NCBI RefSeq assembly: GCF_013315695.1
Contig: NZ_CP054353.1
Source: Escherichia coli
GTDB taxonomy: Bacteria; Pseudomonadota; Gammaproteobacteria; Enterobacterales; Enterobacteriaceae
Length of the DNA: 64,000 nt
Reading direction: 5' to 3' (one strand)
Part shown: positions 1-14,682 of the stretch, piece after piece
How the letters are laid out: every line of letters starts with the position of its first letter
Position numbering within the stretch: position 1 is the stretch's first letter
Notes under the pieces: generated by a model
Seen by the model: the letters and a program-made list of their open reading frames with translations, nothing else
Told to the model about the DNA's origin: nothing
The model's database searches: none
Position numbers and translations under genes: made by a program

Positions 1-459
1 ATCTCCTGGCTCAATGGTTGGACACATACTGTCCCCACGAACGTTGATAACTTTAATGTGATTTGCTGGTCGTCCACCAAACATCGATACAGCATTATCA
101 GTTCTGTATTCAATGGCATGAATCACATCAATGACATCACCGCCCTGGATAAGGCCATTTCCCGCACTGGCACTGACATCCAGCATTTCAATACGGAATA
201 CATCCTTCACCTGCGTAACATCCTCACTAATACTGTTTTTACATACAGTATTACTTTTGAGGTCTGAGGTAAAGAGATCAGCAATATCAACACCTAAGCT
301 CCTGGCAATATTACTCAGGGCTTGTTCAGTGAATTGTTTCTGCTTACCTGTTTCGAGGCGCGAGATATTCGCCGCATCCACTCCTATTGCTTCAGCGAGA
401 TCGGCGATTTTCATGTTCTTCGCCTGGCGAAGTTGTCTGACTCGATTTCCTATGTTCAT
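1..459 (-). CDS. cI-like prophage repressor (HTH plus S24 LexA-like peptidase domain); N-terminus in window, C-terminus runs off the 5' edge
   Basis: Minus-strand translation from ATG at 459 gives MNIGNRVRQLRQAKNMKIADLAEAIGVDAANISRLETGK (XRE HTH) and later ...VINVRGDSMCPTIEPGD (S24 Ser motif GDSM). Divergent from a cro-like gene. Confidence 0.8.
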   Translation of the reverse strand, partial: MNIGNRVRQLRQAKNMKIADLAEAIGVDAANISRLETGKQKQFTEQALSNIARSLGVDIADLFTSDLKSNTVCKNSISEDVTQVKDVFRIEMLDVSASAGNGLIQGGDVIDVIHAIEYRTDNAVSMFGGRPANHIKVINVRGDSMCPTIEPGD

Positions 460-2509: not shown

Positions 2510-3387
2510 TCCGGAATATTTTCAAACTGTTTACCAATCGCCACCAGCATATTGATTCTGCAATTCCGGGACGTTACACTGTTCAGGCACCTTATAAAGC
2601 GGGTGCCGGGATTGGCGTCCTGAAATTGTCAACGGCGATGTATGACGCGCCAGCGTCTTTTTTATCGTCCGCATTTGCTCACATCCAGATTATGGTGGGC
2701 TGGGCGGGGGCACCGAAAGGTGCGCCGGTCTCCGTTGACGCCGGTTACGCCAACCCCGTCCAGTTCACCACCAGTGAAATTGGCGTTTCCGGTGGTGGAA
2801 GTTTTTCACTGTCAACGGAGGCTGCCATCATGGCTACGATCCCAGCCCTCACTCAACCTGAAATCACCATTGACAACGGCCAGGCCGTTACCACTTCTTT
2901 GGCTGTTGCCAACTTCTTCTCCAAGCGTCACGACGATGTGCTGAAAAAGATCCGCACTCTGGATTGTTCCCCTGAGTTTTGTGCCCGCAATTTTGCGGAG
3001 ACATCGATTTCGGTAAATCAACCGAACGGTGGTACACGCAAGCTCCTTTGCTATCAAATCACACGAGACGGTTTTGCGTTTCTTGCTATGGGTTTCACGG
3101 GTAAACGTGCTGCCCGGTTCAAAGAGGCATACATCAATGCCTTTAACCAGATGGAAAAACTGCTTTCAAAGCCATCCACGCTGAGCGATGCCGCAGATAA
3201 CGCCAGCGTGCTTTACTCCCACCTGTCGGTAATCCACAAGGTCTGGCTGCAGCAGCTTTATCCCATGTTGGCAAAAGCCGAATCCCCGCTGGCTGTAAGT
3301 CTGTATGACCGCATCAACGACGCGGCGCTACTGGCCAGTCTCATAAATTTGTCGCTGAACCCTTCAGAGGTAAGGGGGCGTAAATGA
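2506..3387 (+). CDS. Rha-family phage regulatory protein, copy 2 (tandem paralog)
   Basis: 293 aa; Rha motifs AVTTSLAVANFFSKRHDDVLKKIRTL and FLAMGFTGKRAARFKEAYINAFNQME; ATGA start overlapping the copy-1 stop. Confidence 0.7.
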   Translation: MIRNIFKLFTNRHQHIDSAIPGRYTVQAPYKAGAGIGVLKLSTAMYDAPASFLSSAFAHIQIMVGWAGAPKGAPVSVDAGYANPVQFTTSEIGVSGGGSFSLSTEAAIMATIPALTQPEITIDNGQAVTTSLAVANFFSKRHDDVLKKIRTLDCSPEFCARNFAETSISVNQPNGGTRKLLCYQITRDGFAFLAMGFTGKRAARFKEAYINAFNQMEKLLSKPSTLSDAADNASVLYSHLSVIHKVWLQQLYPMLAKAESPLAVSLYDRINDAALLASLINLSLNPSEVRGRK

Positions 3388-3608
3388 TCCGGAATATTTT
3401 CAAACGGTTTACCAATCATACTTTCCGTTGTCCTCGTCCGGGTCAGTGGTACACCACGCCTGCAGGGCATGTTCTACGTGTTAGCCTGGTTGACCGTGAA
3501 TGTCAGAAGGTGATTTGTGAACCGCTGGGCCGTAATTACCGCGTCAGTATGCCGCTTATAGCCTTTCGCTCCGGAAAAAACATGAAGCATCTCGGAGGTG
3601 CTGCATGA
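3384..3608 (+). CDS. Small hypothetical protein (74 aa) sharing its first 22 nt with the Rha copy-2 start
   Basis: Starts ATGATCCGGAATATTTTCAAAC, identical to 2506-2527; ATGA overlap with the Rha copy-2 stop and with the downstream replication gene start. Confidence 0.4.
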   Translation: MIRNIFKRFTNHTFRCPRPGQWYTTPAGHVLRVSLVDRECQKVICEPLGRNYRVSMPLIAFRSGKNMKHLGGAA

Positions 3609-4423
3609 GTATGGAGTTGATGGTTAAAGCGATGAAAATTCGAGTGGGAAATCCATTGCGAAAACTGGTTCTGATTAAGCTGGCTGATAATGCCAGCGAT
3701 CAGGGTGAGTGCTGGCCCAGCTACCAGCATATTGCTGACCAGTGCGAGATTAGCAAACGTTCTGTGATGAATCATATTGCGGCCCTTTGTGAGTCCGGGC
3801 TGGTAAAAAAAGTCACCCGGAAAGGTGAAAAAGGTAACTCAAGTAATATCTATCTCCTTCATCTTGATGGTGCAGGAGATTCACTAGGGGGTAGTGCAAA
3901 TAATTCACTATCTGGTGCAGCAAATTCACCAGGTAGTGCAGGAGTTGCACCAGGGGGTAGTGCAGGAGATTCACCCAGAACCAGTCACTCTTTTGAACCA
4001 GTCAAAGAACCAGTCAATGAACCAATAGCTGTTGGTGCATCTGCTGATGAGTCTGTGCGAGTTCGTTCAAACCGACCGGAATACTCTCCGGAGTTTGAGC
4101 AGGCATGGCTGGCCTATCCAAAACGTGCTGGTGGCAATTCAAAATCTGCAGCCTTCAAAGCCTGGAAAGCCCGTTTGAATGAGGGGGTAAACCCCGAAAC
4201 CATGCTGGAAGGTGTGAAACGCTACGCGGGCTGGGTATCTGCGATGGGTAACAGCGGCACACAATTTGTGAAACAGGCTGTCACGTTCTTTGGCCCGGAT
4301 CGTCATTTCGAAGAATCCTGGGAAGTTCCTGCGGTATCTGCAGTCAGACGCGAGGACCCGTACTTCAAAGCCAGTTACGACAACGTGGACTACAGCCAGA
4401 TCCCGGAAGGATTCAGGGGGTGA
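3605..4423 (+). CDS. Phage replication initiation / replisome-organizer-like protein with N-terminal winged HTH
   Basis: 272 aa; N-terminus MSMELMVKAMKIRVGNPLRKLVLIKLADNASDQGECWPSYQHIADQCEISKRSVMNHIAAL; internal iteron-like DNA repeats; position after the cII/rha block. Confidence 0.6.
   Translation: MSMELMVKAMKIRVGNPLRKLVLIKLADNASDQGECWPSYQHIADQCEISKRSVMNHIAALCESGLVKKVTRKGEKGNSSNIYLLHLDGAGDSLGGSANNSLSGAANSPGSAGVAPGGSAGDSPRTSHSFEPVKEPVNEPIAVGASADESVRVRSNRPEYSPEFEQAWLAYPKRAGGNSKSAAFKAWKARLNEGVNPETMLEGVKRYAGWVSAMGNSGTQFVKQAVTFFGPDRHFEESWEVPAVSAVRREDPYFKASYDNVDYSQIPEGFRG
3865..3985 (+). repeat. Iteron-like direct repeats inside the replication gene (candidate ori)
   Basis: Repeated motifs GGTGCAGGAGATTCAC (x2), AGGGGGTAGTGCA (x2), GGTGCAGCAAATTCACC, AGGTAGTGCAGGAG; encode a G/S/A-rich linker GGSANNSLSGAANSPGSAGVAPGGSAGDSP. 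Confidence 0.5.
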
Positions 4424-4914
4424 TCATGAGTCTTTTGAATGAAGTTCAGAAATTCATTGAAGCCCATCCGGGCTGTACTTCCGGAGACATTGCGGATGCT
4501 TTTGCTGGTTACTCACGGCAGCGCGTTCTGCAGTCAGCAAGCAAGTTACGTCAGAGTGGGCGTGTGGCTCACCGTTGTGAAGGAGATACACGCAGACATT
4601 TCCCACGCCTGACTGAGAGAGCGCAGGATCCGGAACCACAACCAGTTCGTGAAACCAGACCTGTGCGCAATTTCTATGTCGGCACTAACGATCCCCGTGT
4701 GATTTTGTGCCTGACCCGCCAGGCTGAAGAACTGGAGTCCAGGGGCTTATACCGTCGTGCTGCAACGGTGTGGATGGCGGCATTCCGTGAAAGCCACTCC
4801 CAGCCAGAACGAAACAATTTTCTGGCACGTCGTGAGCGGTGCTTACGGAAAAGCAGCAAGCGCGCTGCATCGGGTGAAGAGTGGTATCTGTCAGGGAATT
4901 TCGTGGGGGCTTAA
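4420..4914 (+). CDS. Hypothetical protein with PerC/Pch-like C-terminal motif
   Basis: 164 aa; C-terminal LESRGLYRRAATVWMAAF...RRERCL resembles the PerC-family GLWRRAA..W...RR..C signature; ATGA-coupled to neighbours. Confidence 0.45.
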   Translation: MIMSLLNEVQKFIEAHPGCTSGDIADAFAGYSRQRVLQSASKLRQSGRVAHRCEGDTRRHFPRLTERAQDPEPQPVRETRPVRNFYVGTNDPRVILCLTRQAEELESRGLYRRAATVWMAAFRESHSQPERNNFLARRERCLRKSSKRAASGEEWYLSGNFVGA

Positions 4915-5567
4915 TGAGTAATAAATATTGCCAGGCGCTGGTGGAACTGCGGAACAAACCAGCCCATGAACTGAAGGAAGTGGGCGATCAGTGGCGCACG
5001 CCGGACAACATTTTCTGGGGAATTAACACCCTGTTTGGCCCGTTTGTTCTGGATCTGTTCACTGACGGTGATAACGCCAAATGTGCTGCGTATTACACTG
5101 CGGAAGACAACGCGCTGGCGCATGACTGGTCTGAACGTCTTGCGGAGCTTAAAGGTGCTGCCTTTGGTAATCCCCCGTACAGCCGCGCCAGTCAGCATGA
5201 GGGGCAATACATCACCGGCATGCGTTACATCATGAAACATGCCAGTGCCATGCGTGATAAAGGCGGGCGCTATGTTTTCCTGATCAAAGCTGCCACCAGC
5301 GAAGTGTGGTGGCCGGAAGATGCAGATCATATTGCTTTTATTCGCGGGCGTATTGGTTTTGAACTGCCTGCCTGGTTTATCCCGAAAGACGAAAAGCAGG
5401 TGCCAACAGGTGCTTTCTTCGCTGGTGCTATTGCTGTTTTCGACAAGACCTGGAAGGGACCGGCAATCAGCTACATAGGGCGCGATGAACTTGAGGCATG
5501 TGGTGAGGCGTTTCTGGCGCAGGTTCGCCAGCAGGCGGAAAAACTGGTCAGGGAGATGGCGGCATGA
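4914..5567 (+). CDS. Phage-type DNA N6-adenine methyltransferase (Dam family)
   Basis: 217 aa from ATG 4914 (TAATG overlap); catalytic NPPY motif (AAFGNPPYS); typical lambdoid nin-region gene. Confidence 0.8.
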   Translation: MSNKYCQALVELRNKPAHELKEVGDQWRTPDNIFWGINTLFGPFVLDLFTDGDNAKCAAYYTAEDNALAHDWSERLAELKGAAFGNPPYSRASQHEGQYITGMRYIMKHASAMRDKGGRYVFLIKAATSEVWWPEDADHIAFIRGRIGFELPAWFIPKDEKQVPTGAFFAGAIAVFDKTWKGPAISYIGRDELEACGEAFLAQVRQQAEKLVREMAA

Positions 5568-5890
5568 CGACGTTAACTCAATGCCAGCAGCAGGTGCTGG
5601 ATATGCTGATTTCTTATCAGAAAGAACGTGGCTTCCCGCCAACCAATCAGGAGGTGGCAACCATGCTGGGATACCGTTCGGTGAATGCAGCGGTGGAGCA
5701 TCTTCGCGCACTGGAGAAAAAAGGCGTCATCACGATAAAGCGTGGCGTGGCCCGGGGGATAACGCTTCATACTGCGATGAAGGACGACGACAGCGAGGCG
5801 GTCGGGATTATCCGCGCACTGCTTGCCGGTGAGGAAAACGCAAGGCTGCGTGCAACCCACTGGTTACATGAGAGGGGCCTGAAAGTATGA
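5564..5890 (+). CDS. LexA DNA-binding-domain-like protein lacking the S24 peptidase domain
   Basis: 108 aa; QQQVLDMLISYQKERGFPPTNQEVATMLGYRSVNAAVEHLRALEKKGVI parallels the LexA N-terminal winged helix ([50 protein letters not shown]). Confidence 0.75.
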   Translation: MTTLTQCQQQVLDMLISYQKERGFPPTNQEVATMLGYRSVNAAVEHLRALEKKGVITIKRGVARGITLHTAMKDDDSEAVGIIRALLAGEENARLRATHWLHERGLKV

Positions 5891-6282
5891 AGCTAATACT
5901 GCCTTTTCCGCCCAGCGTGAACACGTACTGGCGACACCCCAACAAAGGGGCGTTTGCTGGTAAGAGCCTGATAAGCGCGGCGGGGCGAAAATTCCAGAGC
6001 GCGGCGTGTGCAGCAATAGTTGAGCAGTTACGTCGTCTGCCGAAACCAACGTCGGCACCTGCTTCAGTGGAGATCGTGTTGTTTCCTCCGGATAACCGGA
6101 TCCGCGATCTGGACAACTATAACAAGGCGCTGTTTGACGCCCTGACCCACGCGGGTGTGTGGGAAGACGACAGTCAGGTGAAAAGAATGCTGGTGGAGTG
6201 GGGACCGGTTATCCCGGAGGGGAAGGTCGAGATCACTATCAGTAAGTACGAAAAAGCGAGTTGCAAATTAGCAACTCGGTAA
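5887..6282 (+). CDS. rusA: RusA Holliday-junction resolvase
   Basis: 131 aa; characteristic DLDNYNKALFDALTHAGVWEDDSQV; ATGA coupling. Confidence 0.85.
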   Translation: MKLILPFPPSVNTYWRHPNKGAFAGKSLISAAGRKFQSAACAAIVEQLRRLPKPTSAPASVEIVLFPPDNRIRDLDNYNKALFDALTHAGVWEDDSQVKRMLVEWGPVIPEGKVEITISKYEKASCKLATR

Positions 6283-6444
6283 CGGAATTGAGCAACACCC
6301 TAAATTTGGGTATTACCTCGTTAAAGATACTGTATTTATGAACAGTGTATCCTTGATAACTATTAAAAATCGCAGTAAGTTCATCCTGCATCAACGAAAA
6401 GGGAGTGCAGTCCCGCTCGTGGATAAAAATTTGTGGAGAAACCA

Positions 6445-7260
6445 ATGAATCAGTTGCTTGTAATTGATGGCGTTTCTGTGCGCCAGTACTTCGAATCTAA
6501 CTACTGTCTTAACGACCTTCAGAAAGCTGCTCTTCTTGCCGCTGGTGAGAATCGCTCCTCCCGTTCGCTGGAAGTTCACGAGTTTATGCGTCGTCCTGAA
6601 ACGAAGGCTCTTGTGGAATTATTGGAAGAAGAAACTACGGGAGATTCCCGTAGTATTCCTGTCATCACCATTCAGGGGCGCAATGGTGGGACGTATGTCT
6701 GTAAAGAGCTGGTCTATGCATATGCAATGTGGATCAGCCCGGCATTCAGCTTAAAAGTGATACGTACTTTTGATGCGCTTCATAATTCATCACCAGAAGA
6801 AACCACATCCGACAAAATTAAATCCGGGGTCATTCTGCTTGAATCAGCAGCAAAGACTCTAAATCTGTCAAACTCCTCGAAACTTGGTGCATACCAGAAA
6901 TTATCAAAGGTAGCTGGTCTTCCTGAACTTATGCCGATCTATGCCATTGATGCACCTGCTGATGCGCCAGATGGTTCAAGCCGCCCTACGCTGTCGCTGA
7001 GTGCACTGCTGAAGCAGTATGGTATCCGCCTGACGGCTAATCAGGCATATCACCAGATGGCGAAGCTGGGGATCGTTGAACAACGCGAACGATACAGCCG
7101 TACCGCGATTAACAACATCAAAAAATTCTGGTCGCTGACCGCGAAAGGCTGCATGTTCGGCAAGAACATCACCAGTCCTGCAAATCCGCGCGAGACGCAG
7201 CCGCATTTCTTCGAATCCCGATTTCCTGAGCTGTTAAAGCTGCTCGATACCGTTCATTGA
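6445..7260 (+). CDS. KilA-N domain protein
   Basis: KilA-N signature GGTYVCKELVYAYAMWISPAFSLKVIRTFD; ATG 6445 preceded by GGAG (ORF track begins at GTG 6433). Confidence 0.6.
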   Translation: MNQLLVIDGVSVRQYFESNYCLNDLQKAALLAAGENRSSRSLEVHEFMRRPETKALVELLEEETTGDSRSIPVITIQGRNGGTYVCKELVYAYAMWISPAFSLKVIRTFDALHNSSPEETTSDKIKSGVILLESAAKTLNLSNSSKLGAYQKLSKVAGLPELMPIYAIDAPADAPDGSSRPTLSLSALLKQYGIRLTANQAYHQMAKLGIVEQRERYSRTAINNIKKFWSLTAKGCMFGKNITSPANPRETQPHFFESRFPELLKLLDTVH

Positions 7261-9949: not shown

Positions 9950-10663
9950 ATGGCTGTTGTCTGTTCAGTTATCATGGTTTGCTCCCCAATTAATATTTTT
10001 CTTGAAAAGGATACGTTGTCACTTAAGCCAGGCTCAGTTGTTCTGGCCACCAAATGCATCAGGGAGCTTTTCCTTATGCATTATGGCAAAGTTAAAATTG
10101 TCGATATAAGCGAATCCGTCGTAAGTCAATATCTGGAAAGTCAGCATAAGCTGACGAGGACTCGTCTGACTGACATTCCGCTTTACCTGTTGCTGGAACC
10201 CAACAATCCTGCGTTGGCTGCGGCTTTAATTACCAGCCAGGGATTTTCCGGAGAGGCCACGGATATGTTTCTTATGATGGCCTGCCTGTCTCTGTTTGAA
10301 ACAGATGAACGGATGTCATTGTTTTTAAGTGGATGTTTATCCAGCATAAGTGCCAAAGTCAGGGCGATAATTCAGACAGATATATCAGCAAGCTGGACGC
10401 TTGGTGCGATTGCTCTACAGTTGCATATGAGTGAGAGTTTGTTAAAGACAAAACTGAAAAATGAAGGGGGCATGTTCAGTCGCTTGTTGCTGGAAGAGCG
10501 GATGCGTGTTGCTGTAAATATGTTATGTTCCCGGCATGGATATGGACAGGCTATAGCAGAAAAATGCGGTTATTCAAGCAGGTCCTACTTTATTTCTGTA
10601 TTTCACCGCTATTATGGCTTCCCGCCAGACAGATATGTATCCAGGCAAGGGCTTGATTATTGA
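9950..10663 (+). CDS. AraC-family transcriptional regulator (prophage-encoded; start uncertain)
   Basis: C-terminal AraC-type HTH (WTLGAIALQLHMSESLLKTKLKNEGGMFSRLLLEERMRVAVNML...GYSSRSYFISVFHRYYGFPPDRY). Confidence 0.7.
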   Translation: MAVVCSVIMVCSPINIFLEKDTLSLKPGSVVLATKCIRELFLMHYGKVKIVDISESVVSQYLESQHKLTRTRLTDIPLYLLLEPNNPALAAALITSQGFSGEATDMFLMMACLSLFETDERMSLFLSGCLSSISAKVRAIIQTDISASWTLGAIALQLHMSESLLKTKLKNEGGMFSRLLLEERMRVAVNMLCSRHGYGQAIAEKCGYSSRSYFISVFHRYYGFPPDRYVSRQGLDY

Positions 10664-10691
10664 TTTTCATCTGATTATTATTTTTTGGCTC

Positions 10692-10767
10692 GGCCCTTTA
10701 GCTCAGTGGTGAGAGCGAGCGATTCATAATCGCCAGGTCGCTGGTTCAAATCCAGCAAGGGCCACCA
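10692..10767 (+). tRNA. ileZ: tRNA-Ile2 (anticodon CAU, ileX/ileZ-like)
   Basis: 76 nt cloverleaf GGCCCTT...AAGGGCC-A-CCA; anticodon loop TTCATAA; close to the E. coli ileX sequence. Confidence 0.8.
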
Positions 10768-10774
10768 TCACATA

Positions 10775-10851
10775 CCGCCATTAGCTCATCAGGATAGAGC
10801 GCCAGCCTTCGAAGCTGGTTGCGCGGGGTTCGAGTCCTCGATGGCGGTCCA
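10775..10851 (+). tRNA. argN: tRNA-Arg (anticodon UCG)
   Basis: 77 nt; acceptor CCGCCAT/ATGGCGG; anticodon stem-loop CCAGC-CTTCGAA-GCTGG; T-loop GGTTCGAGTCC; 3' CCA. Confidence 0.8.
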
Positions 10852-10864
10852 TTATCTGTACCCT

Positions 10865-10941
10865 GCGTTATTAGCTCAGCCGGACAGAGCAATTGCCTTC
10901 TAAGCAATCGGTCACTGGTTCGAATCCAGTACAACGCGCCA
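10865..10941 (+). tRNA. argO: tRNA-Arg (anticodon UCU)
   Basis: 77 nt; anticodon loop CCTTCTAAG; T-loop GGTTCGAATCC; 3' GCCA; one acceptor-stem mismatch. Confidence 0.8.
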
Positions 10942-10980: not shown

Positions 10981-11433
10981 AAATGTCTCACAATTCAGAC
11001 GGTTGACAGTTGTCTGTTTTGCGGGGAGTTTGTTAAAAGAAACTGGCATGGTGAATCCCCCTGTGCGGAGGGGCAATCAGCAACTGGTGTTTTGTCACCG
11101 ACCCTTATCCTTTCTGTGCGGGTTCAGGTGCTGATACTGAACTCACCGGGAGGCACCCGGCATCATGTGCATGATGATACAGATACGCGGCTTTAGCCCC
11201 TCTCCGGAGGGGCTTTCTTGTGGGCAAAAAAAAGCCCGAGTGGGTTCGGGCAACAGCATGAGATATACATTTTTATAATCGAATGGATTTTAACCAGAAT
11301 TCATAAGGCTGCGCAACTGCGCGGTCTTTTTCGAATTGCGGGCTGTCGTCTCTCTTCTGCCATTGTCCTGTAACTTCCGGACTTCAGCCCGCTCCTTATT
11401 TTACTCACAATATTATCCCGGCCGGGAGGATTC

Positions 11434-13395
11434 ATGGCATTTAAACACTATGACGTGGTCAGGGCGGCATCGCCGTCAGACCTTGCGAAACGACTGACAC
11501 AAAAACTGAAGGAGGGGTGGCAGCCATTTGGCAGTCCGGTGGCCATCACGCCTTATACCCTGATGCAGGCCATTGCGGCGGAAGGTGATGTCACCACACC
11601 TGTGGTGGTGAAGCCGTCGGATGGAGAAGGCGCAGTTATCAGCAACACCAGCAACCCGGAGTATTACTTTGTTGTTGCCCTGGCCGGGCAGTCAAACGGT
11701 ATGGCGTATGGTGAAGGGCTTCCGCTGCCGGAGACATATGACCGTCCGGACCCGCGTATTAAACAGCTGGCGCGTCGCAGCACTGTCACGCCGGGTGGTG
11801 CGTCCTGTAACTACAATGACATTATTCCTGCGGACCACTGCCTGCATGATGTTCAGGATTTGAGTAAGTTTTCACACCCGAAAGCCAGCGCAGCTCAGTA
11901 TGGATGCGTGGGGCAGGGATTACATATCGCGAAGAAATTGTTGCCGTTTATTCCGGCGAATGCCGGTATTCTTCTGGTTCCGTGCTGCCGTGGTGGTTCT
12001 GCATTTTTGGCGGGCGATGAAGGTACCTTCAGCGAATCCACCGGCGCAAGCGAGACCTCGGCACGCTGGGGTGTAGATAAGCCACTGTACAAGGACCTGC
12101 TTACCCGTACTCAGGCCGCACTGAAGGCCAACCCTAAAAATATTCTGCTTGCAGTGGTCTGGATGCAGGGCGAGTTTGATTTGAAACAGGGTGCATACGC
12201 CACTCAGCCGGGGCTGTTTGATTCCATGGTGGAAAAATATCGTTCTGACCTGTCGGAATTCGGAGGTCAGTGTCTCGGGGGCTCTCCGTCATCAGTTCCC
12301 TGGATTTGTGGCGACACGACCTACTACTGGAAGCAGACTTATTCTTCGCAATACGATGCGGTGTATGGTGCATATAAGACGAAATCCGCAAAAAAAATCT
12401 TCTTTGTGCCGTTTATGACGGATGAAAACGGGCGAAATGTGGGTACCAACGAGCCGTCAGAAGATCCGGATGTTGCGGATATTGGGTATTACGGAGCCGG
12501 TGGTCGAACGGACGCCAAAACCTGGACGACGGCTGACCGTAAAACGCATTTTGGATCATGGGCACGTCGTGGGATTATTTCCGACCGTCTGGCAACGGCG
12601 ATTCTTGTGCATGCCGGGAGAACCGCTGAATTCATTACCGGAAAACAGCCTGATACGGTGAAGCCCACCGGACCTTCCGGTGAAGGTACGGAGAGAGAGC
12701 CGGAAGGTCCGGTCAGTAACCGAACCCTGATGAGTCTGCTGGCGTCCGGCGAAGACCTGGCATCACAGGGCTGGCGCTATTATCACAAACCGGCGAGCGG
12801 AGACAATGTTAACAAAAACATTGCTGAAGCGGTGGTCAGTGATGCGGGGGCTACGGGAGGTAAGGCCCTGCAACTGAATAAACCGGAAAACCACATCTGG
12901 TTTCTGGAGCATGATGCAGCCGGGCAGGGGGCAGAGTTGCTGAAGAAAGGAGGACGTGTGAGCGTACGGTTTAAGTTGCCGGGTTCACTGGTGCCGAATC
13001 AGTTTGCCCTGGGCATTTACTGGCAGTTGTCGTCCCTGCCGGAGGGAGTGACGCTGGCAGAGGAAGGCAACGACATGCTGATGTCCTTCTTTCTGCAGAC
13101 GGATGCGACGAACCTGAACGCGATGCACCACAAGAAGCCGAATGCGAAGCTGGAAACGTTCGGGGTCTTTGATAACGGATGGCACACACTGGCTTTTGAG
13201 TTTGCCGGAAACAACAGCATTCAGGTGACGCCGGTACTGGATGAGAAACGGGGGACGCCGTTCACACTGGTGAAATCTCCGGCATCAGGGGCGGCGGACA
13301 AACTGCAACTGACAGGCATATCAAAGGCGGCGACATATACGCTGCTGATTGACAGTGTGAAGGTGGAAGTGAACAACGCGGATGCCGCGGCATGA
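11434..13395 (+). CDS. nanS: Prophage 9-O-acetyl-sialate esterase NanS-p (DUF1737 plus SASA/SGNH esterase)
   Basis: 653 aa; N-terminus MAFKHYDVVRAASPSDLAKRL (DUF1737); esterase motif YYFVVALAGQSNGMAYGE; sits where Stx phages carry nanS-p downstream of stx. Confidence 0.85.
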   Translation: MAFKHYDVVRAASPSDLAKRLTQKLKEGWQPFGSPVAITPYTLMQAIAAEGDVTTPVVVKPSDGEGAVISNTSNPEYYFVVALAGQSNGMAYGEGLPLPETYDRPDPRIKQLARRSTVTPGGASCNYNDIIPADHCLHDVQDLSKFSHPKASAAQYGCVGQGLHIAKKLLPFIPANAGILLVPCCRGGSAFLAGDEGTFSESTGASETSARWGVDKPLYKDLLTRTQAALKANPKNILLAVVWMQGEFDLKQGAYATQPGLFDSMVEKYRSDLSEFGGQCLGGSPSSVPWICGDTTYYWKQTYSSQYDAVYGAYKTKSAKKIFFVPFMTDENGRNVGTNEPSEDPDVADIGYYGAGGRTDAKTWTTADRKTHFGSWARRGIISDRLATAILVHAGRTAEFITGKQPDTVKPTGPSGEGTEREPEGPVSNRTLMSLLASGEDLASQGWRYYHKPASGDNVNKNIAEAVVSDAGATGGKALQLNKPENHIWFLEHDAAGQGAELLKKGGRVSVRFKLPGSLVPNQFALGIYWQLSSLPEGVTLAEEGNDMLMSFFLQTDATNLNAMHHKKPNAKLETFGVFDNGWHTLAFEFAGNNSIQVTPVLDEKRGTPFTLVKSPASGAADKLQLTGISKAATYTLLIDSVKVEVNNADAAA

Positions 13396-13546
13396 TAAAA
13401 AAAGGCCGCCAGCAATGAAGGAAAGGGATGAACTGTGTCCACTACATGAATGCTGGCGGCTGGTAAAACGACCACGATGACACCGAAGTTTGCGATATTT
13501 TTCTACAAAAATAAGTAAATCATGTCAACTATCACGGTGAGAAACC

Positions 13547-13729
13547 ATGACATTTCTGAACCAGTTAATGCTGTACTTCTGTACGGCAGTCTGTGTTATG
13601 TATCTTCTTTCGGGTGGGTACAGGGCAGTGCGCGATTTCTGGCGCAGGCAGATTGATAAAAGGGCCGCTGAGAGAATCAGCGCCAGTCAGTCAGCCGGAA
13701 GCAAACCCGAAGATCCGCTCATTCCGTAG
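13547..13729 (+). CDS. Small hypothetical membrane protein (60 aa)
   Basis: One hydrophobic helix LMLYFCTAVCVMYLLSGG then a basic tail; weak RBS; low confidence. Confidence 0.3.
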   Translation: MTFLNQLMLYFCTAVCVMYLLSGGYRAVRDFWRRQIDKRAAERISASQSAGSKPEDPLIP

Positions 13730-13766
13730 TCACTTTCTTGACAACACCTTTCAACGAGAAAATCCC

Positions 13767-14036
13767 ATGTCAGAAATCACATCCCTGGTCACTGCTGAGG
13801 CAGTGAAGGAAGTCCTGCGCTCTGAAGAAGTCCTGAGCGCACTGAAACAGAAACTCCGCCAGAACCTTGAGGCGCGTCTTGATGCAGAAGTGGATGCCAT
13901 TCTGGATGAGCTGCTGGGCGTACCAGCGGTTCCGGAGCCGGAAGGCATTGCGGATGACAGTACTGTTTCAGATGGCGTCGGGTCTCAGCCTGACGGTAGT
14001 GAAGAGCCTCAGCCTGACGGCGAAATGATGATGTAA
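13767..14036 (+). CDS. Small acidic hypothetical protein (89 aa)
   Basis: ATG 13767 inside the longer ORF-track call; acidic C-terminus ...DGSEEPQPDGEMMM; between nanS-p and the holin. Confidence 0.4.
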   Translation: MSEITSLVTAEAVKEVLRSEEVLSALKQKLRQNLEARLDAEVDAILDELLGVPAVPEPEGIADDSTVSDGVGSQPDGSEEPQPDGEMMM

Positions 14037-14111
14037 CCATGCGCAGGGGGTGTCGGTGTGAGCTGATGCCCCACTTGTTGTTGTGAGCTTCCGGATTGCG
14101 GGAGACGGGGT

Positions 14112-14327
14112 ATGTACCAGATGGAAAAAATCACAACAGGTGTGTCATACACCACGTCAGCGGTGGGAACGGGCTACTGGTTCCTGCAGTTGCTGGACAG
14201 GGTTTCCCCGTCTCAGTGGGCGGCAATAGGCGTGCTGGGGAGTCTGCTGTTTGGGCTGCTGACATATCTGACTAACCTGTATTTCAAAATCAGAGAGGAC
14301 CGGCGTAAGGCGGCGCGGGGAGAGTAA
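14112..14327 (+). CDS. Holin, phage 21 S-type (pinholin-like) with dual-start motif
   Basis: 71 aa; MYQMEK... dual Met start; ...[51 protein letters not shown] closely resembles S21. Confidence 0.85.
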
Positions 14328-14331
14328 AGTG

Positions 14332-14682
14332 ATGAATAAAAAATATGAACTGGTTGTTAAGGGGATAAATAATTACGGGGATAAGGTTACTGTTACTGTG
14401 AAGCCGGAAGGTGACGGGCAAGCGTCGCTGTTGTTGCCAGATGTGGCGATTAGTCTTGACCGTACTGAAGGTGCCACGCTGGAGTTTTACGAAGCTGAGG
14501 CGAAAAAGCAGGCGAAGCAGTTTTTCATGGATGTTGCTGCCGGGTTATGTGAAGGGGATGGTCCGTTGCCGGAAAAGCGCCCCGTAATTTTAGAGGCGCA
14601 GGATGTGTTGATAACCTACAAAGGAAAGCTACCGGGAAGAATTACTGGTTCTCTGAAGACTCCACCGGAATCACAACCTTAA
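14332..14682 (+). CDS. Hypothetical protein (116 aa) inserted between holin and endolysin
   Basis: ATG 14332 after GGGGAGAG; soluble, no known motif; unusual position inside the lysis cassette. Confidence 0.5.
   Translation: MNKKYELVVKGINNYGDKVTVTVKPEGDGQASLLLPDVAISLDRTEGATLEFYEAEAKKQAKQFFMDVAAGLCEGDGPLPEKRPVILEAQDVLITYKGKLPGRITGSLKTPPESQP

What the first reader, a model, noticed from the sequence alone, without database searches (positions are those of the whole stretch)
13396..14110. Two small ORFs between nanS-p and the holin
A 60-aa single-TM ORF (13547..13729) and an 89-aa acidic ORF (13767..14036) occupy the nanS-p-to-S interval. Their function is unknown, and the hairpin-rich sequence suggests late-transcript processing or termination signals.
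Basis: seen in the sequence. Interest (0 to 1): 0.3.

Follow-up and report, generated by a model that had tools for sequence, protein, structure and literature searches.

The report
Two small phage genes beside holin
The two small ORFs are real, conserved prophage genes (Pfam DUF1378, a one-helix membrane protein, and DUF826, an acidic helical protein) already catalogued with unknown function, and the hairpins around them are a convergent small-RNA terminator, a terminator before the lysis genes and a stem-loop at the holin start.

Summary
ORF 13547..13729 is a full-length DUF1378 protein and ORF 13767..14036 a DUF826 protein. Both are annotated in RefSeq, are identical in other E. coli prophages, and are under purifying selection (dN/dS 0.28 and 0.36; control frames above 1).

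The pair occurs in about 19% of complete E. coli genomes, nearly always in the order nanS-p, DUF1378, DUF826, P21-type holin. It is also mobile:
- In Mu-like prophages it follows a SASA esterase, far from any lysis genes.
- In one group the gene order is reversed, after the tail-fibre genes.
- DUF1378 alone closes two unrelated lysis cassettes, its ATG overlapping the Rz stop.
- Some prophages lack the pair entirely.

Function is untested. My best inference (about 0.35) is a late-expressed membrane module that tunes lysis timing.

Of the three hairpins:
- 13404-13461 is the terminator of a minus-strand sRNA gene placed like PasC/PasA/EcOnc52, though sequence similarity to these is not significant.
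- 14047-14072 is a terminator hairpin supported by covariation.
- 14088-14104 is an invariant stem at the holin start.

This is ordinary, catalogued biology with an open functional question. Interest 0.3.

The parts
11434..13395 (+). nanS-p type esterase (DUF1737-SASA-DUF6645). This is the upstream neighbour and context of the module.
   Evidence: Pfam hits. RefSeq annotates it as a SASA family carbohydrate esterase.
13397..13492 (-). Predicted convergent small RNA of about 96 nt, placed like PasC/PasA/EcOnc52. The 5' end near 13492 is inferred. The 3' end is the T7 run at 13403-13397, abutting the nanS-p stop.
   Evidence: The layout matches PasC, PasA and the PP2 unit in alignment A6. PasC's 3' end at 1290832 abuts the esterase stop at 1290830. 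EcOnc52 at 1181998-1182075 (-) overlaps the esterase end at 1182008. Of 59 distinct esterase-to-DUF1378 spacers, 54 have the same layout. Sequence similarity to PasA/PasC is not significant.
13404..13461 (-). Terminator hairpin of that sRNA. The arms GCCGCCAGCA / TGCTGGCGGC (13405-13414 and 13451-13460) are 10 bp perfect, extended by one or two pairs in the fold, with a 36-nt loop. A7 lies on the + side, which is T7 on the - side.
   Evidence: Inverted repeat I3. Folds have z -3.6 on the + strand and -2.9 on the - strand. Different stem sequences occupy the same place in 55 variants.
13499..13528 (-). Promoter-like element of the sRNA on the minus strand: -35 TTGACA (13528-13523), an 18-nt spacer ending in TGT, then AGAAAA (13504-13499).
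   Evidence: Aligned with the PasC/PasA promoter region. TTGAC lies 18 nt from the DUF1378 ATG in 45 of 54 variants, and 46 of 54 have TTGACA. The simple sigma-70 scan did not report it because the -10 is imperfect.
13547..13729 (+). DUF1378 gene: a 60-aa bitopic membrane protein with an N-terminal TM helix and a basic cytoplasmic tail. The N-out/C-in topology is inferred from the positive-inside rule.
   Evidence: Pfam PF07125 and phrog_494. dN/dS is 0.28. AF2 predicts one helix spanning residues 2-46.
13767..14036 (+). DUF826 gene: an 89-aa acidic protein with helices 10-17 and 20-49, followed by a disordered Pro/Asp/Glu tail ending in MMM.
   Evidence: Pfam PF05696 and phrog_311. dN/dS is 0.36. 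AF2 gives pLDDT 85-90 for the long helix and below 50 for residues 58-79. The longer in-frame GTG ORF 13593..14036 is an annotation artefact: conservation starts at M1.
14047..14085 (+). Intrinsic-terminator-like hairpin GGGGTGTCGGT-GTGA-GCTGATGCCCC (14047-14072), followed by a weak T-rich tail ACTTGTTGTTGTG.
   Evidence: It is the top terminator-like site. Covariation on alignment A5 supports it. An equivalent hairpin with a T-run follows DUF826 in the lambdoid, Mu-like and post-Rz contexts. It also precedes S in loci that lack the pair.
14088..14104 (+). Stem-loop CUUCCG-GAUUG-CGGGAG immediately upstream of the holin Shine-Dalgarno sequence and dual start (Met1 and Met4).
   Evidence: It is present in the MFE fold. 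The stem is invariant in 16 variants while the loop varies. It is retained in pair-less loci. A role in start-codon choice rests on my recollection of the literature and was not tested.
14112..14327 (+). P21-type class II holin (pinholin) with an MYQMEK dual-start motif. This is the downstream neighbour.
   Evidence: Pfam PF04971. RefSeq annotates it as a class II holin family protein.

Best explanation
Shown:
- The interval holds two genuine protein-coding late genes of a lambdoid prophage, DUF1378 and DUF826.
- It also holds three RNA or DNA structural elements: a convergent sRNA gene with its terminator, a terminator hairpin after DUF826, and a stem-loop at the holin start.
- The two genes travel together as a mobile pair.
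- DUF1378 can occur alone. DUF826 was never seen without an intact or decayed DUF1378 beside it, where the flanking sequence was long enough to tell.

Inferred mechanism:
1. DUF1378 inserts into the inner membrane with a very short periplasmic N-terminus, one TM helix rich in Tyr, Gly, Ser and Cys, and a conserved basic juxtamembrane helix (GGY[KR]xxRxxxR[RK]xxD) in the cytoplasm.
2. DUF826 is a cytoplasmic acidic helical partner that modulates DUF1378.
3. Both are made only from the Q-antiterminated late transcript, together with holin, endolysin and spanin.
4. They adjust when or how the membrane step of lysis fires, acting as a holin accessory or antiholin-like timing device rather than as an essential lysis protein.
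5. The terminator after DUF826 stops any transcription not modified by Q before it reaches the holin.
6. The convergent sRNA is fully complementary to the nanS-p/DUF1378 spacer of the late mRNA, so it could also act on it in cis.
For: Coding and family:
- Family assignment.
- Purifying selection.
- 1014 of 5426 complete E. coli genomes carry the region.

Late-operon position:
- No sigma-70-like promoter was found on either strand in 13000-14600.

Link to lysis:
- In 160 loci the order is esterase, DUF1378, DUF826, S21 holin.
- In 27 loci DUF1378 directly follows Rz: a large group with an S21 pinholin, SAR lysozyme and a distinct Rz (24 loci), and 3 loci with a lambda-S type holin (PF05106), soluble lysozyme and Rz/Rz1.
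- In all seven such loci checked, the DUF1378 ATG overlaps the Rz stop (ATGA) with a GGAG inside Rz.
- In a further lambdoid group DUF826 follows Rz.

Pair behaviour:
- The genes are adjacent in both orders, DUF1378 then DUF826, or DUF826 then DUF1378 in L136 and L138.
- Their charges are complementary, about +2.8 for the DUF1378 tail against -15.5 for DUF826.

Dispensability:
- Natural loci run from esterase straight to holin without the pair: L234, L239, L240, L242, L244 and E2348/69 PP2.

Precedent for this kind of protein:
- LysF1b, a single N-terminal TMD, N-out/C-in holin-like protein that works with a two-TMD holin-like protein (PMC13056207).
- ORF52 of phage BSPM4, which modulates holin timing (PMC11657625).

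Terminator:
-.
Against: - There is no experiment on either protein.
- The pair also sits far from lysis genes. In 17-18 Mu-like prophage loci it lies between gin plus a SASA esterase and com/mom. Elsewhere it lies after tail-fibre and Tfa genes at a prophage end.
- All these places, including the Q-to-S interval and the post-Rz site, are classic moron slots. Adjacency to lysis genes may therefore reflect insertion tolerance rather than function.
- DUF1378 has no detectable homology to the S21 holin (BLASTP none; hhalign probability 0.4%).
- It is not tied to one holin type.
- S21 already has its own antiholin form. As I recall, the K-12 prophages DLP12 and Qin carry P21-type holins without the pair.
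- An AF2 model of a DUF1378-linker-DUF826 fusion gave no confident complex (pTM 0.18; the DUF826 part fell from 85-90 to about 50 pLDDT).
- DUF1378 and DUF826 sequence types recombine freely.
Confidence: 0.35

Rival explanations
1. The pair is a generic moron with a role unrelated to lysis. One example would be a membrane protein that blocks DNA entry of superinfecting phage, or otherwise alters the host envelope, with DUF826 as its regulator. It rides passively at the ends of late operons.
For: - The pair is found at several different moron-tolerant sites in lambdoid, Mu-like and P2-like or Mu-like tail-fibre contexts.
- It has a narrow, patchy distribution. Only 3 loci were found among representative genomes of about 100,000 species, and only 45 DUF826 representatives among 1.84 billion proteins.
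- It is frequently lost.
- A terminator at its 3' end in every context is typical of a self-contained cassette.
- From my own knowledge, small bitopic inner-membrane proteins at such sites include HK97 gp15 and T4 Imm.
Against: - No promoter of its own was detected in the window. In some Mu-like loci only 35 nt separate the esterase stop from the DUF1378 start. Expression from a repressed prophage, which exclusion normally needs, is therefore not evident.
- In two cassette types the start codon overlaps the Rz stop, an operon integration not typical of morons.
- There is no hit to any PADLOC defence model.
Confidence: 0.25
2. The pair is an accessory of the NanS-p/SASA esterase. It forms one three-gene unit with the esterase and could, for example, tether, release or regulate an enzyme that lacks a signal peptide.
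For: - The order esterase, DUF1378, DUF826, terminator is kept in two unrelated phage backbones: the lambdoid late region and the Mu-like right end.
- Even DUF826 relatives of roughly 35-45% identity keep this order.
- A terminator closes the unit directly after DUF826 in both backbones.
Against: - DUF1378 occurs without any esterase in the post-Rz and tail-fibre contexts, and the pair occurs without an esterase in L136, L138 and L253-256.
- Esterase genes occur without the pair.
- That NanS-p lacks a signal peptide is my recollection and was not tested here.
Confidence: 0.12
3. DUF1378 is a small membrane toxin and DUF826 its acidic antidote. The pair would be a toxin-antitoxin-like or addiction cassette that is merely carried by phages.
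For: - The asymmetry of occurrence: DUF826 is never found without DUF1378, while DUF1378 is sometimes alone.
- The charges are opposite.
- The proteins are very small and the pair is mobile.
Against: - A toxin gene standing alone in about 30 loci, translationally coupled to Rz, is hard to reconcile with a need for an antidote.
- There is no autoregulated promoter.
- Neither protein resembles any PADLOC, Pfam or PDB toxin or antitoxin family.
Confidence: 0.08
4. The ORFs are not translated, and the interval is only regulatory RNA consisting of sRNA, terminators and a leader.
For: Three structured elements do lie in the interval.
Against: - Frame-specific purifying selection.
- Full-length Pfam matches.
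- Conserved Shine-Dalgarno sequences.
- Homologues at 30-55% identity in other genera and phage types.
Confidence: 0.02

Closest known systems
DUF1378 (PF07125) and DUF826 (PF05696) genes of Stx phages: 933W orf25/orf26, phi24B vb_24B_23/24, Sakai Sp5 ECs_1210/ECs_1211
   Same: - Same families, same order and same neighbours (nanS-p upstream, S holin downstream).
- DUF1378 is 88-93% identical to the phage copies and DUF826 69-78% identical.
   Different: - The window prophage has no stx. An HTH gene and tRNAs sit where stx would be.
- Its esterase-to-DUF1378 spacer belongs to a different sequence group.
- Its DUF826 tail differs from the phage copies.
LysF1b of F1-cluster mycobacteriophages (PMC13056207)
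   Same: [quoted passage not shown]
- It is encoded in a lysis cassette next to a two-TMD N-in/C-in holin-like protein, and it affects lysis timing.
- DUF1378 has the same architecture next to the two-TMD S21 holin.
   Different: - No sequence relationship was shown.
- The host is Gram-positive or mycobacterial.
- LysF1b has genetic evidence, whereas DUF1378 has none.
- DUF1378 is also found away from lysis cassettes.
T4 antiholins RI (membrane/periplasmic) and RIII (cytoplasmic)
   Same: The logic is the same: two small proteins, one membrane-tethered and one cytoplasmic, acting on a holin (PMC11413866 and PMC8385771, seen as abstracts).
   Different: - There is no homology.
- RI's functional domain is periplasmic, whereas nearly all of DUF1378 outside the membrane is cytoplasmic.
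- No evidence of holin binding exists for DUF1378 or DUF826.
PasC/PasA sRNAs of EPEC E2348/69 and EcOnc51/52 of EHEC Sakai (Hfq-bound, prophage-encoded)
   Same: - Convergent orientation, with the 3' end abutting the esterase stop codon.
- A TTGACA -35, an A-rich -10 preceded by TG, and a GC-rich terminator with GCCAGC-type arms followed by T7.
- A seed that overlaps the terminator stem.
- Sources.
   Different: - BLAST and nhmmer find no significant similarity between PasA or PasC and the window element.
- The spacer variants fall into at least 8 groups unlinked by BLAST, and the window type is a separate group from PasA/PasC.
- The terminator loop is unusually long (36 nt).
- Expression of the window element is untested.
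- E2348/69 PP2 and PP5 lack DUF1378 and DUF826.
Stem-loop upstream of dual-start holin genes (lambda sdi; S21 dual-start motif)
   Same: A short stem directly 5' of the Shine-Dalgarno sequence and the two start codons (Met1 and Met4) of a class II holin.
   Different: That this structure sets the ratio of the two products is my recollection (Barenboim et al. 1999). My literature search did not retrieve it, and it was not tested here.

Membership tests
Pfam DUF1378 (PF07125) | Score above the gathering threshold over the whole ~59-residue profile | tested here: met
   124.8 bits against a cut-off of 25, covering positions 1-59 of 59. Members from other genera also pass, for example the Stenotrophomonas phage protein at 62 bits.
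Pfam DUF826 (PF05696) | Score above the gathering threshold | tested here: met
   126.8 bits against a cut-off of 25, covering positions 1-73 of 75.
Holin (functional class) | Small membrane protein with at least one TMD and a charged, hydrophilic C-terminus | tested here: met
   DUF1378 has its hydrophobic segment within the uncharged residues 1-25 (best 19-residue window 3-21), and a tail with 8 K/R. AF2 predicts a helix over residues 2-46. This feature is generic and not diagnostic.
Holin (functional class) | Homology to a described holin family | tested here: not met
   The only Pfam hit is DUF1378. BLASTP finds nothing and hhalign gives probability 0.4% against the S21 holin.
Holin (functional class) | Lethal, energy-poison-triggered permeabilisation that releases or activates the endolysin | not testable with these tools
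   This needs expression and lysis assays.
Antiholin / lysis-timing accessory | Encoded in or next to the lysis cassette and co-expressed with it | tested here: inconclusive
   It is adjacent to the cassette in most loci and overlaps the Rz stop in two cassette types. It is distant from lysis genes in the Mu-like and tail-fibre contexts.
Antiholin / lysis-timing accessory | Binds the holin and shifts triggering time | not testable with these tools
   There are no experiments in the literature searched.
PasA/PasC (EcOnc51/52) sRNA family | Gene convergent with the sialate esterase, with its 3' end at the esterase stop codon | tested here: met
   In the window the T7 run at 13403-13397 abuts the stop at 13393-13395. 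PasC and EcOnc52 have the same geometry.
PasA/PasC (EcOnc51/52) sRNA family | 3' stem-loop followed by poly-U (intrinsic terminator and Hfq site) | tested here: met
   The stem is 10-12 bp followed by T7 on the minus strand. The same holds in 54 of 59 spacer variants.
PasA/PasC (EcOnc51/52) sRNA family | Significant sequence similarity to PasA or PasC | tested here: not met
   blastn-short and nhmmer give no significant hit at 13397-13530. There is no BLAST path between the window group and the PasA/PasC group. Only motif-level similarity is seen in alignment A6.
PasA/PasC (EcOnc51/52) sRNA family | Expressed, Hfq-bound RNA | not testable with these tools
   RIL-seq and CRAC data exist only for the E2348/69 and Sakai alleles.
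Rho-independent terminator (14047-14085) | GC-rich stem maintained by selection | tested here: met
   The stem has 11 pairs, with 93.7% of cells paired and 4 pairs showing compensatory changes. Slid controls give 41-65%.
Rho-independent terminator (14047-14085) | U-tract directly after the stem | tested here: inconclusive
   The window tail is ACTTGTTGTT, with 6 T in 10 and interrupted. Sister variants have TTTTTTATTG or TTTTTCATG.
Moron (autonomous inserted transcription unit) | Own promoter and own terminator | tested here: inconclusive
   A terminator is present in all contexts. No + strand promoter was found in the window.
Rfam families | Covariance-model match inside 13396-14110 | tested here: not met
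   The only match is a chance-level snoZ30 hit (E 0.73). The real matches lie upstream: STnc100, AsxR/AgvB and tRNAs.

The most novel reading that the evidence does not exclude
DUF1378 and DUF826 form a previously unrecognised two-component regulator of the membrane step of phage lysis. DUF1378 would be a bitopic N-out/C-in effector and DUF826 its acidic cytoplasmic modulator. The module would be portable between pinholin/SAR-endolysin and canonical holin/endolysin cassettes and between lambdoid, Mu-like and P2-like phages. In Stx phages it would co-determine the timing of toxin and NanS-p release.
Probability: 0.25. Interest if true: 0.55.

Novelty: already known. Interest (0 to 1): 0.3.

Why it matters
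These two genes sit between the Shiga toxin/nanS-p cargo and the lysis genes in most Stx phages. They are present, often in several copies, in about one in five complete E. coli genomes. Nobody has tested what they do.

Toxin and esterase are released by phage lysis. If the pair tunes lysis timing, it would influence how much toxin and how many phage an induced cell releases.

Three practical points follow for annotation and for construct design in this region:
- The older 139-147 aa 'orf43'-type annotation of DUF826 is too long.
- The spacer after nanS-p carries a convergent sRNA gene.
- A conserved terminator shields the holin gene.

Tried and rejected
1. **Holin homology.** I tested whether DUF1378 is a truncated or diverged S21 holin. 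BLASTP found nothing and hhalign gave probability 0.4%. Rejected.
2. **Structural or family clues.**
   - No NCBIfam or PADLOC model matches, and PHROGs lists both only as 'unknown function'.
   - PDB profile searches found nothing meaningful.
   - Foldseek of the DUF826 model against BFVD gave no match below E 1.
3. **AF2 complex.** A DUF1378-(GGGGS)5-DUF826 fusion with a paired alignment gave pTM 0.18 and no confident complex. The test was uninformative rather than negative, because the alignment is shallow, a monomer model was used and no PAE was returned.
4. **Literature by locus tag.** L0106/L0107, Z1467/Z1468 and ECs1208/1209 returned only noise; ECs1208/1209 turn out to be IS629 in Sakai. 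ECs1210/1211 gave one microarray table entry, ECs1211 at -3.29 at a growth transition.
5. **phi24B 24B_1 microRNA.** Its predicted target is 'upstream of S and vb_24B_23'. The 20-nt sequence is absent from the window even with 3 mismatches allowed.
6. **Pas membership by sequence.** Direct sequence membership of the window sRNA in PasA/PasC was not met. I did not build a covariance model, because a hairpin-plus-T-run model would not discriminate.
7. **Co-variation of protein types.** DUF1378 and DUF826 sequence types are mixed by recombination.
8. **The 32-aa ORF 13382..13480.** It overlaps the hairpin and has no family. I treat it as spurious.
Full report
**Observation.**
- ORF 13547..13729 (+, 60 aa) has a GGTGAG Shine-Dalgarno sequence, an uncharged hydrophobic N-terminal 25 residues and a basic C-terminal part (pI 10.7).
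- ORF 13767..14036 (+, 89 aa) is strongly acidic (pI 4.05, net charge about -15.5).
- Upstream lies a DUF1737-SASA-DUF6645 esterase of the nanS-p type (11434..13395).
- Downstream come a P21-type class II holin (14112..14327), a YdfR/DUF1327 gene, a lysozyme with a hydrophobic N-terminal extension like that of SAR endolysins, and Rz.
- The window DNA is 100% identical to stx-negative prophages of human E. coli isolates, for example a urine isolate, and there the two ORFs are already annotated.

**Identity and coding status.**
- The ORFs are full-length members of Pfam DUF1378 (124.8 bits) and DUF826 (126.8 bits). In PHROGs they fall in families of unknown function.
- No NCBIfam, PADLOC or PDB relative exists.
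- I compared 26 DUF1378 alleles and 52 DUF826 alleles drawn from about 240 fetched loci. NG86 dN/dS is 0.28 and 0.36 in the annotated frames, and 1.2-2.2 in the shifted frames.
- The longer in-frame ORF 13593..14036 corresponds to the 139-aa 'orf43' of VT2-Sakai and to vb_24B_24. It is an over-extension: conservation begins at the ATG at 13767 and the upstream extension is not conserved.

**Distribution.**
- The region matches 1014 of 5426 complete E. coli genomes, with a median of 3 places per positive genome.
- It also matches 306-309 phage records, nearly all Stx phages.
- Outside Escherichia and Shigella the families are rare.
  - A scan of one genome per species (about 100,000 species) found only Cedecea and Lonsdalea, plus one contaminant-like contig.
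  - A profile search of 1.84 billion representative proteins found 45 DUF826 proteins.

**Gene contexts**:
- (A) Lambdoid: esterase, DUF1378, DUF826, S21 holin, optional DUF1327, lysozyme, Rz. This covers 160 loci, and DUF826 relatives at roughly 35-45% identity keep the same order.
- (B) S21 holin, a lysozyme with the same SAR-like N-terminal extension, a different Rz, then DUF1378, followed by a tailspike. There are about 24 loci, including phages deposited as Stenotrophomonas phages BUCT708 and BUCT709, whose 48% GC is unlike what I recall for that host.
- (C) Lambda-S type holin, soluble lysozyme, Rz/Rz1, then DUF1378 (Lonsdalea type, 3 loci).
- In all seven B and C loci checked, the DUF1378 ATG overlaps the Rz stop (ATGA) and a GGAG lies inside Rz.
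- (D) Tail fibre, Tfa, DUF826, DUF1378 (reversed order), then Dam and a host gene.
- (E) Mu-like: gin, SASA-DUF6645 esterase, DUF1378, DUF826, terminator, com/mom (17-18 loci).
- (F) Rz, a hairpin, an apparently frameshifted DUF1378-like relic that the HMM does not detect (my reading), then DUF826.
- (G) Tail fibre, DUF1378, Dam (Cedecea).

DUF826 was never found without an intact or decayed DUF1378, where the flanking sequence was long enough to tell, while DUF1378 stands alone in B, C and G. Several lambdoid loci run from esterase to holin with no pair at all, as does E2348/69 PP2.

**Proteins.**
- AF2 models DUF1378 as a single helix spanning residues 2-46 (pLDDT 65-76).
- It models DUF826 as a short helix (10-17) plus a long amphipathic helix (20-49, pLDDT 85-90), followed by a disordered Pro/Asp/Glu tail.
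- Invariant DUF1378 positions lie in the TM segment (L9, Y10, F11, V15, Y19, L20, G23, G24, Y25) and in the juxtamembrane segment (R29, D37).
- A linker fusion gave no confident complex (pTM 0.18). I treat this as uninformative.
- DUF1378 is not related to the S21 holin.

**RNA and DNA structures.**

*Hairpin 13404-13461.*
- It directly follows the esterase stop. It is preceded by A7 and has no U-run after it, so it is a minus-strand terminator.
- Of 59 distinct esterase-to-DUF1378 spacers (181 loci), 54 share one minus-strand layout. This is TTGAC(A) at a near-fixed 18 nt from the DUF1378 ATG, a 16-19 nt spacer, an A-rich -10-like hexamer, a variable body, a GC hairpin with many different stem sequences, and a T5-8 run (mostly T7).
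- That is the position and architecture of several experimentally detected Hfq-bound sRNAs.
  - PasC: its 3' end at 1290832 abuts the esterase stop at 1290830.
  - PasA: its minor form ends at the esterase stop.
  - EcOnc52: it overlaps the end of ECs_1088.
  - Sources: PMC8550237 table S6; PMC4104026 supplement.
- The preprint by Zhu, Shabalina and Storz (2026) describes an 'esterase-PasA-holin-lysozyme' arrangement and a seed overlapping the terminator stem.
- Alignment A6 shows the shared promoter and terminator motifs.
- However, BLAST and nhmmer find no significant similarity between PasA/PasC and the window, and the variants split into at least 8 unlinked sequence groups.
- I therefore call it a positional and architectural counterpart of PasC/PasA, not a demonstrated family member.
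- Such an RNA is fully complementary to the late mRNA spacer. A cis-antisense effect on the late transcript is possible but is only an inference.

*Hairpin 14047-14072.*
- It lies 10 nt after the DUF826 stop. In 16 distinct variants, 93.7% of cells are paired and 4 of 11 pairs carry compensatory changes, against 41-65% paired in slid controls.
- A hairpin plus T-run follows DUF826 in contexts A, E and F, and one precedes S in pair-less loci.
- The window allele has a weaker T-tail than its sister alleles.
- Its likely role is to stop transcription not modified by Q before the holin gene. This is an inference.

*Stem 14088-14104.* The stem (CUUCCG/CGGGAG) is invariant, its loop varies, and it sits directly before the holin Shine-Dalgarno sequence and the Met1/Met4 dual start. 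A role in start-site choice is my recollection of the S21 and lambda literature and was not verified.

**Mechanism.** Nothing has been tested experimentally.
- The best-supported inference is a late-expressed inner-membrane module, with DUF1378 as effector and DUF826 as cytoplasmic modulator, that tunes the membrane step of lysis.
  - For it: adjacency to lysis cassettes of three different compositions, the overlap with the Rz stop, holin-like architecture, dispensability, and functional precedents (LysF1b; BSPM4 ORF52).
  - Against it: the pair also occupies tail-fibre and Mu right-end sites, all of these are moron-tolerant sites, and no interaction or homology supports the model.
  - I put it at about 0.35.
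- The rivals are:
  - a lysis-unrelated moron such as an exclusion protein (0.25);
  - an esterase accessory (0.12);
  - a toxin/antidote pair (0.08);
  - non-coding (0.02).

**Verdict.** The genes are already catalogued families of unknown function, and the structured elements belong to known kinds: a prophage convergent sRNA, an intrinsic terminator and a holin leader stem. The finding is ordinary, but it leaves a cheap, testable question in a medically relevant phage region.

**Limits.**
- The context counts come from loci seeded by similarity, so they are not an unbiased census.
- Host assignments are as deposited.
- The sRNA 5' end and all expression statements for the window allele are predictions.

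Noticed in passing
window 11017-11281: Upstream of nanS-p lies a convergent sRNA pair: STnc100 (11017-11225, +, 131.7 bits) and an AsxR/AgvB-type anti-sRNA (11229-11281, -, AsxR 63 bits, at its gathering score). This is the arrangement Tree et al. 2014 describe at the PR' moron site. With the Pas-like element after nanS-p, it mirrors the PasD2-esterase-PasA arrangement of E2348/69.
   Followed up: partly
window 9950-10938: This prophage has no stx. A 237-aa helix-turn-helix (AraC-like) gene and three tRNAs (Met, Arg, Arg) occupy the Q-to-nanS-p interval, where Stx phages carry tRNAs plus stxAB.
   Followed up: partly
L136 2955-3412; L138 2637-3094: The gene order is reversed here (DUF826 then DUF1378), directly after the tail-fibre and tail-fibre-assembly genes at a prophage end. 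This is the best evidence that the two genes are functionally linked.
   Followed up: yes
L258-L261 around 3600-6520: Mu-like prophages carry a SASA-DUF6645 esterase (without DUF1737), then DUF1378, DUF826 and a clean intrinsic terminator, between gin and com/mom. The esterase and the pair therefore move as one cassette between unrelated phage types.
   Followed up: partly
L253 5880-6000 (also L254-L256): Between Rz and DUF826 there is a TM-plus-basic coding remnant (...YYCIA / FIVLAGAGFRTYQKRNQ...). It looks like a DUF1378 gene broken by a frameshift at a T5 run. It is identical in four assemblies and is not detected by the HMM.
   Followed up: partly
L234, L239, L240, L242, L244 (about 5756-6130); L250 5852-6124: These are natural variants in which nanS-p is followed by about 370 nt of non-coding DNA and then S, with no DUF1378 or DUF826. 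L245 and L246 also lack a DUF1378 hit but were not read. In L250 DUF1378 is lost and DUF826 has a replaced N-terminus. The terminator and the stem before S are retained.
   Followed up: partly
L265 (Sakai Sp5) 2835-6501: In the Sakai chromosome the Sp5 nanS-p gene is interrupted by IS629 (ECs_1208/1209). DUF1378 and DUF826 are ECs_1210 and ECs_1211. ECs1211 appears once in a 2007 microarray table, at -3.29 at a growth transition.
   Followed up: partly
L011 (phage BUCT709) and L102: Phages deposited as Stenotrophomonas phages carry an S21-type holin and a lysozyme with the same SAR-like N-terminal extension, closely similar to the E. coli prophage one by eye. Their GC content is about 48%, far from what I recall for Stenotrophomonas (about 66%). 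The S21-like holin region in BUCT709 is annotated on the wrong strand.
   Followed up: no
window 14329-14682: A YdfR/DUF1327 gene (117 aa) is inserted between the holin and the lysozyme. In other loci the same family is 114-328 aa long or absent. It is another variable gene of unknown function inside the lysis cassette.
   Followed up: no
L157, L159 around 6697-6774: Here a partial second esterase 3' end with a 98.7% identical PasC copy lies between DUF826 and S. Pas-type sRNA units and the DUF pair can therefore coexist in one interval.
   Followed up: no
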